Virus record (IMG/VR): IMGVR_UViG_2554235189_000011
Location: 1 to 43,336 of that record
Origin: a virus
Taxonomy: Duplodnaviria; Heunggongvirae; Uroviricota; Caudoviricetes
Length of the DNA stretch: 43,336 nt
Direction: 5' to 3' (one strand)
Part shown: positions 38,760 through 41,060 of the stretch, one piece after another
How positions within the stretch are numbered: position 1 is the stretch's first letter
Layout of the letters: each line of letters opens with the position of its first letter
Notes under the pieces: model-generated
The model's input: the letters and a program-made list of their open reading frames with translations, nothing else
Database searches by the model: none
Told to the model about the DNA's origin: nothing
Program-made: the position numbers and the translations under genes

Positions 38760-39082
38760 ACTTTCAGGCCCCTCTCATGTAACCAGTGGGTTGCACGCAG
38801 CCTTGCGTTTTCCTCACCGGCAAGCAGTGAGCGGATAATCCCGACCGCCTCGCTGTCGTCGTCCTTCACCGCGGTATGAAGCGTGATGCCCCGGGCCACG
38901 CCACGCTTTATCGTGATGACGCCTTTTTTCTCCAGTGCGCGAAGATGCTCCACCGCTGCATTCACTGAACGGTATCCCAGCATGGTTGCCACCTCCTGAT
39001 TGGTTGGCGGGAAGCCACGTTCTTTCTGATAAGAAATCAGCATATCCAGCACCTGCTGCTGGCATTGAGTTAACGTCGTCAT
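38756..39082 (-). CDS. LexA-like winged-helix DNA-binding protein
   Basis: 108 aa; N-terminal region resembles LexA DNA-binding domain. Confidence 0.6.
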
Positions 39083-39361
39083 GCCGCCATCTCCCTGACC
39101 AGTTTTTCTGCCTGCTGGCGAACCTGCGCCAGAAAGGCCTCACCACATGCCTCAAGTTCATCGCGCCCGATGTAGCTGATTGCCGGTCCCTTCCAGGTCT
39201 TGTCGAAAACAGCAATAGCACCAGCGAAGAAAGCGCCTGTCGGCACCTGCTTCTCATCCTTCGGGATAAACCAGGCAGGCAGTTCAAAACCAATACGCCC
39301 GCGAATAAAAGCAATATGATCTGCATCTTCCGGCCACCACACTTCGCTGGTGGCAGCTTTG
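39079..39361 (-). pseudogene. phage gene truncated at its 5' end by IS insertion
   Basis: Frame continues from IS terminal sequence into ...[29 protein letters not shown]...; no start codon outside the IS. Confidence 0.6.
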
Positions 39362-39433
39362 TGTAGTGGCACACTAAATTTGGCCACCTGATGAAAGGTG
39401 ATATTCTCACCACAACACAAAACAGGTGACTTA

Positions 39434-39745
39434 ATGAACAAGAAAACCAAACGAACCTTCACCCCTGAGTTCAGGCTGGAATGTGCACAGCTGATTGTTG
39501 ATAAGGGCTACTCATATCGACAGGCCAGTGAAGCGATGAATGTCGGTTCAACCACGCTTGAGAGCTGGGTACGCCAGCTCAGGCGAGAGCGCCAGGGTAT
39601 TACGCCCTCTGCCACACCCATTACTCCAGACCAGCAACGTATCCGCGAGCTGGAAAAGCAAGTTCGCCGTCTGGAGGAACAAAATACGATATTAAAAAAG
39701 GCTACCGCGCTCTTAATGTCCGACTCGCTGAACGGTTCACGATAG
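39434..39745 (+). CDS. IS3-family transposase OrfA
   Basis: [38 protein letters not shown]...[18 protein letters not shown]. Confidence 0.85.
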
Positions 39746-40611
39746 CCGCCAGACTAAGTGACAGCCACACGGTTGTCAGCCTGTGTTCTGCTCTGGAAAT
39801 ACACCGCAGCAGTTACCGGTACTGGCGAAAACGACGCGATACGGTTAATCCGGCACGAGTCAGGTTGTGCAGCGAAATACGCCGGGCGTGGAACCAAAGT
39901 CGGGGCTCTGCGGGCGCGCGCACTCTGGCTGAAATGCTGACTCAAAACGGCGTCCCGATGAGCCGTTACCGTGCCGGACGTCTGATGAAATATCTGAACC
40001 TGAGCAGTTGTCAGCCCGGAAAACATCAGTATAAAAATGCCCGTCAGGAGCATACCAGCCTGCCGAATCTGCTTGAGCGTCAGTTCGCAGTACCGGAGCC
40101 AGACCGGGTATGGTGTGGAGATATTACGTATCTCTGGGCAGGAAATCGCTGGTGCTATCTGGCGGTTGTTATGGATCTTTTTGCCCGCAGGGTTATCGGC
40201 TGGAGTCTGTCAGCGCATGCCGATACCGCACTGATAAGCAGTGCCCTGCGGATGGCCTATGAGATGCGTGGCCAACCCCGGGATGTCGTGTTCCATAGCG
40301 ACCAGGGAAGCCAGTATACAGGCCTTAAATATCAACAACTTCTCTGGCGTTGCAGAATAAATCAAAGCGTCAGTCGGCGGGGAAACTGCTGGGATAACAG
40401 CCCCATGGAACGCTTCTTCCGCAGTCTGAAAACAGAATGGGTGCCAACGAATGGTTACGCAGGCAAGGACGAGGCCCGGCAGCAAATTAATGATTACATA
40501 TTGAACTACTACAACAGCGTCAGACCTCACCATTATAACGGTGGGCTGACGCCGGAAGAGTCAGAGAACAGATACCATTTTTACTGTAAAACCGTGGCCA
40601 ATATTACTTGA
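39694..40611 (+). CDS. IS3-family transposase OrfB (DDE), expressed as OrfAB fusion by -1 frameshift
   Basis: Slippery AAAAAAG at 39694-39700; OrfB frame is -1 relative to OrfA; DDE-type integrase region. Confidence 0.8.
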
Positions 40612-40619
40612 CCACTACA

Positions 40620-41060
40620 GTGTGAATTACCACCCTTAATTGTCGTTCCATTGCTGATACCACCTGTATAAACGTCCTGATTGCCACTGTCGATTATCGT
40701 ACCGGCGGAAATGCCCCCGTCATGAATTGTCTGTCTTCCTCCGTTAATGGTTGTATTATTAGCCTGCCCCACAAAATTGTTATGACTTCCTACATCTTGA
40801 TATCCACCCGATTCAATAAGACTTCCATTAGATACCCCGCCATGAACATTCTGCTGGCCATGGTTGATAATATGAGTGTTATTTGTTGTACCTCGTTCAT
40901 CTACTCTTTGGCTGCCATCTACAGTCTCATCGTTTACCACACCAATAACATCAGGAGTGAAGGCCGTCATCCCAGGCGGGGCATATATCAAGGCAGATAT
41001 CAATAAGGAAAGTACTGAGCGGCGACAATAATGGGGACTGGTCCTGTTCATAAATTTCAT
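40620..41060 (-). pseudogene. 5' fragment of an autotransporter adhesin gene (AIDA/Ag43-like), truncated by the IS
   Basis: Signal peptide MKFMNRTSPHYCRRSVLSLLISALIYAPPGMTA then repeats (GGVSNGSLIESGGYQDV...GGISNGTTIKGG); frame runs straight into the IS end. Confidence 0.6.

What the first reader, a model, noticed from the sequence alone, without database searches (positions are those of the whole stretch)
39079..41060. IS911-like element joins a truncated phage gene to an autotransporter fragment without target-site duplication
The IS is complete, but its flanks are unrelated: the 3' part of a phage nin-region gene on the left and the 5' part of an AIDA/Ag43-like autotransporter on the right. 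The flanking triplets (TTG versus GTG) do not form a clean duplication, pointing to an IS-mediated deletion or recombination that removed the replication/immunity region of the late-gene prophage. Together with the IS629 end at 1-348 this explains the mosaic structure.
Basis: seen in the sequence. Interest (0 to 1): 0.45.

Follow-up and report, generated by a model that had tools for sequence, protein, structure and literature searches.

The report
IS-anchored deletion that beheaded a prophage
An intact insertion sequence that originally sat inside the E. coli adhesin gene ypjA later lost all the DNA on its left, including the integrase, immunity and replication genes of a neighbouring prophage; this is an ordinary scar of insertion-sequence activity.

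Summary
Window 39362-40619 is a complete 1258-bp IS3-family element, 92.9% identical to a copy annotated as ISEc31 family. Its left flank is the last 283 bp of a phage dam methylase gene. Its right flank is the first 441 bp of ypjA/ehaD. The flanking triplets are TTG and GTG, so there is no duplication.

- The IS|ypjA-5' junction occurs in 197 genomes.
- Three genomes carry the simple insertion, ypjA-3'-GTG|IS|GTG-ypjA-5'. An uninterrupted ypjA has a single GTG at that site.
- The left junction varies between strains: a GTPase gene fragment (141 genomes), this dam fragment (1), the portal gene of the same prophage (1), and a P2-like phage dam gene (at least 1). Every junction lies at the IS terminus.
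- A 99.9%-identical copy of the prophage in strain NWU_3 sits at ssrA in the same orientation. It shows what is missing here: at least 10.6 kb, covering the dam 5' end, replication, cro/cI, integrase and attR.

The scar is therefore a deletion anchored at the IS. I favour a transposase-driven adjacent deletion over recombination with a second copy, but the sequence cannot separate the two. The IS629-type end at 1-348 lies in a different prophage and plays no part. The phenomenon is already known and of low interest.

The parts
39362..40619 (+). Complete 1258-bp IS3-family insertion sequence, ISEc31-like. IRL 39362-39387; orfA 39434-39745; A-AAA-AAG frameshift site 39694-39700; orfB frame to the stop at 40609-40611; IRR 40594-40619.
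   Evidence: It is 92.9% identical without gaps to a PGAP-labelled ISEc31-family copy. It differs by one base (40265 T instead of C, Thr to Met in OrfB) from the copies at the same ypjA site in the other strains compared.
39079..39361 (-). 3' remnant (283 of 654 bp, 93 codons) of a phage N6-adenine DNA methyltransferase (dam) gene. The 5' 371 bp, which include the catalytic NPPY motif, are missing.
   Evidence: Pfam PF05869, profile positions 95-167 of 169. Comparison with the intact 217-aa protein of strain W12-1. PGAP annotation 'missing N-terminus' in JNE132847.
40620..41060 (-). 5' remnant (441 bp, 147 codons) of the autotransporter adhesin gene ypjA/ehaD. The passenger remainder and the beta-barrel are missing.
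   Evidence: PGAP annotation in syntenic genomes. Pfam AIDA repeat. Contiguous with uninterrupted ypjA in ECL27977.
40620..40622 (.). GTG, the surviving right-hand copy of the 3-bp target-site duplication made when the IS entered ypjA.
   Evidence: GTG flanks both IS ends in S1-CAM-02-A, FREC5 and MARGA_3. It is present once in uninterrupted ypjA.
39359..39361 (.). TTG, the last dam bases abutting IRL. This is the deletion end point. In intact dam it is followed by ATCAGGAAAAC.
9728..39361 (-). Remnant of the prophage (here prophage B: cargo genes, pin invertase, Mu-like tail, HK97-type head, P27-type terminase, lysis, Q, and the RusA/LexA-like/Dam' region). It lacks integrase, excision, immunity and replication genes.
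   Evidence: Colinear at 99.7-99.97% with the ssrA-integrated prophage of NWU_3 and with JNE132847.
9728..9763 (+). 36-nt repeat of the ssrA 3' end. It is the left (attL-side) boundary of prophage B and the junction with the lambdoid prophage A upstream (integrase 7053-8231).

Best explanation
The feature is the scar of a deletion anchored at the left end of an IS.

Step 1 (shown): an ISEc31-like IS3-family element inserted into the chromosomal adhesin gene ypjA/ehaD and duplicated GTG. That insertion is old and is shared by about 200 sequenced E. coli.

Step 2 (shown by comparison): in the ancestor of this strain a prophage sat at the ssrA site just upstream. Its late genes were distal to ypjA, and its replication, immunity and integrase end and attR were next to ypjA.

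Step 3 (event shown, chemistry inferred): everything between the IS left terminus and the middle of the phage dam gene was lost. That is at least 10.6 kb of phage DNA, plus whatever lay between attR and the IS. This would be about 3.0 kb if the ypjA 3' part was still there. The IS and its right junction stayed untouched.

I think the most likely mechanism is a transposase-catalysed, one-ended 'adjacent deletion'. In it the left IS end attacks a nearby target in cis, the intervening DNA is lost, the IS is retained and no duplication is made.

Consequences, which follow directly from the sequence: ypjA and dam are both dead, and the prophage is left without integrase, repressor, cro and replication genes, so it is fixed in the chromosome.
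For: The IS is intact. The right junction is identical in 197 genomes. The predicted ancestral left junction, ypjA-3'+GTG+IRL, was built in silico and found at 100% identity in 5 genomes. Three of these have GTG on both sides. An uninterrupted ypjA has one GTG.

I saw four other left-junction states:
- GTPase' in 141 genomes
- Dam' in JNE132847 only
- the portal gene of the same prophage in FORC_042 only, a nested 9,810-bp larger deletion
- a P2-like phage dam gene in Z0117EC0133

There is also one right-side 390-bp deletion in 2013C-3181 and SCU-106. All junctions lie exactly at an IS terminus, with 0-2 nt of ambiguity.

Synteny is normal on both sides in the sister genome: ssrA, prophage A, prophage B', IS, 'ypjA, pinH', ypjCB, ileY, glaH. 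NWU_3 carries prophage B at 99.9% identity in the same site and orientation, with the missing 10,606 bp (L016 27223-37828) ending in an ssrA-repeat attR. Strain 042 shows the same layout.

IS3-family elements are documented to make TSD-less adjacent deletions that grow over time (IS150 in the long-term evolution experiment, PMC11708052). IS629 with IEE produces more extensive deletions besides precise excision (bioRxiv 10.1101/2023.06.07.543989).
Against: The sequence cannot distinguish a direct transposase-made deletion from homologous recombination with a transient second IS copy, because the products are identical. Copy-out-paste-in transposition as described for IS911 does not by itself predict loss of donor flanks, so an extra step or a host factor such as IEE may be needed. 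The exact ancestor is not sampled, so the total size of the deletion is only a lower bound. The window's right flank is closer to the GTPase-class genomes (99.93%) than to the simple-insertion genomes (98.2%). The deletion may therefore have started from an already deleted state.
Confidence: 0.55

Rival explanations
1. Two-step route. A second copy of the same IS inserted into the phage dam gene in direct orientation, duplicating TTG. RecA-dependent homologous recombination between that copy and the ypjA copy then excised everything in between. This leaves one hybrid IS with the left flank of one copy and the right flank of the other.
For: It produces exactly the observed structure, including unlike flanking triplets. 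The IS is present in 2,416 of 5,426 genomes, often in several copies. IS-IS recombination is a standard cause of missing duplications (PMC11708052).
Against: The predicted intermediate junction, IRR|TTG|dam-5', was not found contiguous in any of the 5,426 complete genomes. The single full-coverage hit was an unrelated ISEc31 between the KilA-N and RusA genes. The IS shows no hybrid signature, only one private SNP. The four other left-junction states and the right-side deletion seen at this one IS copy would each need their own nearby, directly oriented second insertion. The median copy number is only 2 places per genome.
Confidence: 0.33
2. Transposase-independent illegitimate deletion (replication slippage or microhomology-mediated end joining) that happened to end next to the IS.
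For: One or two bases of ambiguity (G or TG) exist at this junction when it is compared with the candidate ancestral flanks.
Against: Six independent junctions in different strains all fall exactly at an IS terminus, and three of them (portal, P2-like dam and the right-side deletion) have no microhomology at all. That precision is not expected from random end points.
Confidence: 0.06
3. Long-range rearrangement. The prophage was an e14-type element at icd carrying an IS copy in dam. Recombination with the ypjA copy (inversion or translocation) brought its late half next to ypjA.
For: An identical 992-bp RusA-LexA-like-Dam segment, and a 99.9% identical 5.4-kb Q-to-dam region, occur in a prophage with intE/xisE integrated at icd in strain W12-1.
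Against: In the sister genome the region is colinear with the standard map on both sides, smpB-ssrA on the left and ileY-glaH-gabD on the right. The prophage's distal end is an ssrA-repeat attL identical to that of the ssrA-integrated copies in NWU_3 and strain 042. The W12-1 case is explained by exchange of integrase modules between related phages.
Confidence: 0.03
4. Assembly chimera created by collapsing IS repeats.
For: IS copies are a classic cause of misjoins.
Against: The same junction is present in an independently assembled complete genome that differs from the window by an IS30 insertion, a flipped pin segment and a 4-kb indel.
Confidence: 0.01

Closest known systems
IS3-family adjacent deletions (IS150 in the E. 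coli long-term evolution experiment; PMC11708052)
   Same: A pre-existing IS3-family copy is retained. One flank is lost from exactly the IS terminus and no target duplication remains. The deletions are nested and larger in some descendants (window compared with FORC_042).
   Different: This case is inferred from natural isolates rather than from a time series. The IS is ISEc31-like, not IS150, and the deleted DNA is a prophage early region.
IS629/IEE-associated genomic deletions in enterohaemorrhagic E. coli (Kusumoto et al. 2011, as summarised in bioRxiv 10.1101/2023.06.07.543989 and PMC9943667)
   Same: An IS3-family element in a pathogenic-type E. coli background (the sister strain carries nleG7). 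Variable deletions flank an IS within prophage-rich regions.
   Different: Whether this strain carries iee could not be tested. IEE mainly promotes loss of the IS itself, whereas here the IS is retained and intact.
ISEc31 / IS911-type IS3-family insertion sequences
   Same: 1258 bp, TG...CA ends, orfA and orfB with an A6G -1 frameshift, an rve DDE domain and a 3-bp duplication.
   Different: 7% nucleotide divergence from the annotated ISEc31 copy. No IS911 reference was available for comparison.
Cryptic, grounded prophages at ssrA such as CP4-57 of E. coli K-12
   Same: A defective element at the ssrA hotspot next to ypjA/pinH/ypjBC, fixed by loss of essential functions.
   Different: Here the integrase-proximal end was removed in one step at an IS. 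The late-gene block looks largely intact rather than eroded.

Membership tests
IS3 family insertion sequence | Length about 1.2-1.55 kb with imperfect terminal inverted repeats ending 5'-TG...CA-3' | tested here: met
   1258 bp; 26-nt inverted repeats, 77% complementary, TGTAGTGG...CCACTACA.
IS3 family insertion sequence | Two overlapping reading frames, orfA (HTH) and orfB (DDE/rve), joined by a -1 programmed frameshift at an A6G-type motif | tested here: met
   orfA 39434-39745 hits HTH_Tnp_1 and the orfB frame hits rve (2e-27). A-AAA-AAG lies at 39694-39700 in the orfA frame, and orfB is in the -1 frame. PGAP labels the same CDS 'programmed frameshift' in other genomes.
IS3 family insertion sequence | Short (3-5 bp) target-site duplication on insertion | tested here: met
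   Not present in the window (TTG versus GTG). The same insertion in S1-CAM-02-A, FREC5 and MARGA_3 is flanked by GTG on both sides, and the empty site has one GTG.
ISEc31 (named element) | Near-identity over the full length to the reference element. The isoform threshold of about 90% DNA identity is ISfinder convention, recalled from memory. | tested here: inconclusive
   92.9% identity over 1258 bp, ungapped, to a copy that PGAP labels 'IS3-like element ISEc31 family' in strain ESC818. The ISfinder reference itself was not available, and PGAP does not give this copy the ISEc31 name.
   No IS911 reference sequence was held. The resemblance of the inverted repeats is from memory only. The length differs (1258 versus 1250 bp).
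IS-anchored (adjacent) deletion | One IS junction is identical to the ancestral simple insertion. The other junction lies exactly at the IS terminus and joins DNA that lay on the same side in cis and in the same orientation. | tested here: met
   The right junction is shared with 197 genomes. The left junction joins the dam gene of a prophage that lies at ssrA, upstream of ypjA and in this orientation, in NWU_3 and strain 042.
IS-anchored (adjacent) deletion | The intervening DNA is absent from the genome, not moved elsewhere | not testable with these tools
   Only the 43-kb window of this strain is available. In the sister genome JNE132847 the flanking synteny is normal, but the whole genome was not scanned for the missing segment.
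IS-anchored (adjacent) deletion | Made by the transposase from a single IS copy, not by recombination between two copies | not testable with these tools
   The products are identical. The two-copy intermediate was not found in 5,426 genomes, which is only weak negative evidence.
YpjA/EhaD autotransporter adhesin | N-terminal signal region, AIDA-repeat passenger and C-terminal beta-barrel translocator | tested here: not met
   Only codons 1-147 remain, with one AIDA repeat hit. The passenger remainder and the barrel are absent. It is a gene fragment, not a functional member.
Phage Dam N6-adenine methyltransferase (PF05869) | Complete domain including the catalytic NPPY motif | tested here: not met
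   Only profile positions 95-167 of 169 are present. In the intact homologue NPPY lies upstream of the break point.

The most novel reading that the evidence does not exclude
One old IS copy in ypjA, placed beside the ssrA integration hotspot, may act as a recurrent deletion generator. It would repeatedly strip the integrase/immunity end from phages that integrate with that end facing ypjA. I saw prophage B cut at dam and at portal, and a P2-like phage cut at its dam gene. This would convert inducible prophages into fixed late-gene cassettes. If it is systematic or selected, it would be a general IS-driven route of prophage grounding at tRNA/tmRNA hotspots.
Probability: 0.2. Interest if true: 0.45.

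Novelty: already known. Interest (0 to 1): 0.15.

Why it matters
It explains why this strain carries a prophage with a largely intact late region (tail, head, terminase, lysis, Q) but no integrase, repressor or replication genes, and why ypjA/ehaD is a pseudogene. It also gives a clean natural example of several independent deletions anchored at one IS copy next to the ssrA hotspot. Such junctions could serve as lineage markers. No new mechanism or gene family is involved.

Tried and rejected
1. Search for a hidden duplication. The flanks belong to different genes, so there is none.

2. Inversion or translocation from the icd locus, suggested by an identical segment in an e14-type prophage at icd in W12-1. 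Rejected, because synteny around the locus is normal and the prophage's far end is an ssrA-repeat attL.

3. Search for the two-copy intermediate, IRR|TTG|dam-5'. No contiguous match was found. The one full-coverage hit was an unrelated ISEc31 between the KilA-N and RusA genes.

4. Looking for a hybrid-IS signature. There is only one private SNP, which is uninformative.

5. Promoter and terminator scan around the junctions. Counts were no higher than in shuffled sequence.

6. tRNA/tmRNA scan of the window. Nothing was found. A suspected ssrA-like remnant near 41794 is only a 13-nt match (E 0.6) and was dropped.

7. Literature search for a described ypjA/ehaD IS insertion. I opened none of the listed papers, and no title or abstract start mentioned one.

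141 are the GTPase class, and I identified only a few of the remaining 56.

Full report
**What is in the sequence.**

Window 39362-40619 is a 1258-bp insertion sequence. It has 26-nt imperfect terminal inverted repeats, TGTAGTGG...CCACTACA. It has an uninterrupted orfA (39434-39745) and an orfB frame open to the stop at 40609-40611. A canonical A-AAA-AAG slippery site lies at 39694-39700 in the orfA frame, and orfB is in the -1 frame. Pfam finds HTH_Tnp_1 in OrfA and the rve integrase core in OrfB.

The element is 92.9% identical, ungapped over its full length, to a copy that PGAP labels 'ISEc31 family' in strain ESC818. I could not compare it with IS911.

To the left, 39079-39361 on the minus strand is the last 283 bp of a 654-bp phage N6-adenine methyltransferase gene. 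It matches Pfam Dam at profile positions 95-167 of 169. The catalytic NPPY motif lies in the missing part. To the right, 40620-41060 on the minus strand is the first 147 codons of the autotransporter adhesin gene ypjA/ehaD. Beyond it lie the pinH remnant and ypjCB, which is chromosomal backbone. The flanking triplets are TTG and GTG.

**The ancestral state.**

The IS occurs in 2,416 of 5,426 complete E. coli genomes, with a median of 2 places per genome. The junction IS|ypjA-5' is present in 197 genomes.

Strain ECL27977 has ypjA uninterrupted at this site, reading ...cacttat GTG tgaatt.... From it I built the junction expected for a simple insertion: ypjA-3' ending in GTG, followed by the IS left end. 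Five genomes contain it at 100% identity. In S1-CAM-02-A, FREC5 and MARGA_3 the IS is flanked by GTG on both sides and by the two halves of ypjA. So the IS entered ypjA with a 3-bp duplication, and the GTG at 40620-40622 is the surviving copy.

**The left junction is variable and always at the IS terminus.**

| Flank at the IS terminus | Genomes |
|---|---|
| Truncated GTPase gene of an island (includes O104:H4) | 141 |
| dam remnant, as in the window | 1 (JNE132847; its IS is also split by IS30) |
| Portal gene of the same prophage, a nested deletion 9,810 bp larger than the window's | 1 (FORC_042) |
| dam gene of a P2-like prophage that has lost its cII/C/integrase end | Z0117EC0133 |
| Right side instead: 390 bp of ypjA missing, left junction ancestral | 2013C-3181 and SCU-106 |

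For the P2-like case, FREC5 and SCU-106 show the intact version of that end. Each of these junctions falls at an IS terminus, with 0-2 nt of ambiguity.

**Where the prophage came from and what is missing.**

In the sister genome JNE132847 the order is smpB, ssrA, lambdoid prophage A (nleG7 ... integrase), prophage B (cargo, pin, tail, head, terminase, lysis, Q ... dam'), IS, 'ypjA, pinH', ypjCB, ileY, glaH. So there is no large inversion.

In the window a 36-nt repeat of the ssrA 3' end at 9728-9763 separates A (integrase 7053-8231) from B. Strain NWU_3 carries B at 99.7-99.97% identity directly downstream of ssrA in the same orientation. Its attL core is at L016 6712-6747 and its attR core at 37795-37828. 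Strain 042 has the same layout.

Relative to NWU_3 the window lacks L016 27223-37828, which is 10,606 bp. That segment holds the dam 5' 371 bp, PerC/YfdN, an O-like HTH replication gene, DUF4222, ymfL, ymfT (cro), ymfK (cI-type repressor), yfdR, the integrase, two cargo genes and attR.

Whatever lay between attR and the IS is also gone. In the simplest ancestor this is 2,993 bp of intergenic DNA plus the ypjA 3' part. The window's right flank is closer to the GTPase-class genomes (99.93%) than to the simple-insertion genomes (98.2%). The starting point may therefore already have been a deleted state that still carried island DNA. For that reason I give only a lower bound for the deletion size.

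**A tempting alternative that fails.**

The RusA-LexA-like-Dam segment is 100% identical to part of an e14-type prophage integrated at icd in strain W12-1. That could suggest IS-mediated translocation from icd. The normal synteny and the ssrA-type attL of prophage B argue against it. The W12-1 phage simply shares the early/late modules with a different integrase module.

**Mechanism.**

The event, a deletion anchored at the IS left terminus, is well supported. The chemistry is inferred.

I favour a transposase-driven adjacent deletion. IS3-family elements are documented to produce such deletions without duplications, and the deletions grow over time (IS150, PMC11708052). More extensive deletions besides precise excision are also described for IS629 with IEE. 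Repeated, terminus-precise events at this single copy fit that picture.

The main rival is insertion of a second copy in dam followed by homologous recombination. It gives an identical product. Its predicted intermediate was not found in 5,426 genomes, and the IS shows no hybrid signature. Both points are weak negatives.

Copy-out-paste-in transposition does not by itself predict loss of donor flanks. That is a point against my preferred reading, and it leaves room for a host factor.

**Consequences.**

Both interrupted genes are non-functional fragments. Prophage B retains what looks like a largely intact late region, but it has no integrase, excision, repressor, cro or replication genes. It should therefore be unable to excise or replicate. 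This is inferred and was not tested.

**The IS629 remark.**

Window 1-348 is the end of an IS629/IS1203-type element. It lies in the early-left region of lambdoid prophage A, next to gam/bet/exo genes, 9.4 kb beyond B's left boundary. It does not help explain the truncation of B.

**Verdict.**

The phenomenon is a textbook IS-associated deletion, and the junction already exists in a public genome. Interest is low. The only mildly notable aspect is the natural series of independent deletions anchored on one IS copy beside the ssrA integration hotspot.

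Noticed in passing
window 12512-14414: A 1.9-kb tail-fibre segment next to the pin invertase gene (11896-12660) is inverted relative to JNE132847 and NWU_3. There are 20-bp overlaps at both ends (12512-12531 and 14395-14414). It looks like an active or recently active Pin-type invertible host-range switch.
   Followed up: partly
window 349-4420: About 4.1 kb of prophage A's early-left region, including bet (2502-3287) and exo (3284-3964), is absent from JNE132847. There an IS629/IS1203-type element abuts the equivalent of window 4421. 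The IS ends are only 96.3% identical, so this is either another IS-adjacent deletion in the sister strain or a different insertion. The 348/349 junction was not found contiguous in any complete genome.
   Followed up: partly
window 9764-9923: The roughly 160 nt to the right of the ssrA repeat, on prophage B's attL side, are 90% identical to the native ssrA-ypjA intergenic region of S1-CAM-02-A. In the strain-042 copy of this attL region about 116 nt downstream of ssrA match it at about 97%. Native-like DNA would normally be expected only beyond attR. The phage may have captured flanking DNA, or the attachment region may be longer than the 34-36 nt core. Unexplained.
   Followed up: partly
window 40265: Private T (C in every other compared copy of this IS at ypjA, including JNE132847). 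It changes Thr to Met in OrfB. The effect on activity is unknown.
   Followed up: no
L002 (JNE132847) 9063-11543: The sister strain's copy of the same IS is itself interrupted by IS30 after IS position 344. The insert is 1223 bp, consistent with IS30 plus a 2-bp duplication, so that copy is inactivated.
   Followed up: partly
L016 (NWU_3) about 19000; window 22018-31139: The NWU_3 copy of prophage B has lost 9.1 kb of head/tail genes, which puts the tape-measure gene directly next to the small terminase gene. That copy is defective in a different way. No fully intact copy of this prophage was seen.
   Followed up: no
window 41471-41611 and 12181-12321: The chromosomal pinH remnant is about 85-86% identical over 142 bp to the prophage pin gene 29 kb away, in the same orientation.
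   Followed up: no
L012 (W12-1) 15623-28037: The same Q-to-dam segment (99.9% identical) is attached to an e14-type intE/xisE module integrated at icd. The ssrA-integrated copies carry a different integrase. This is integrase-module swapping between otherwise near-identical prophages.
   Followed up: partly
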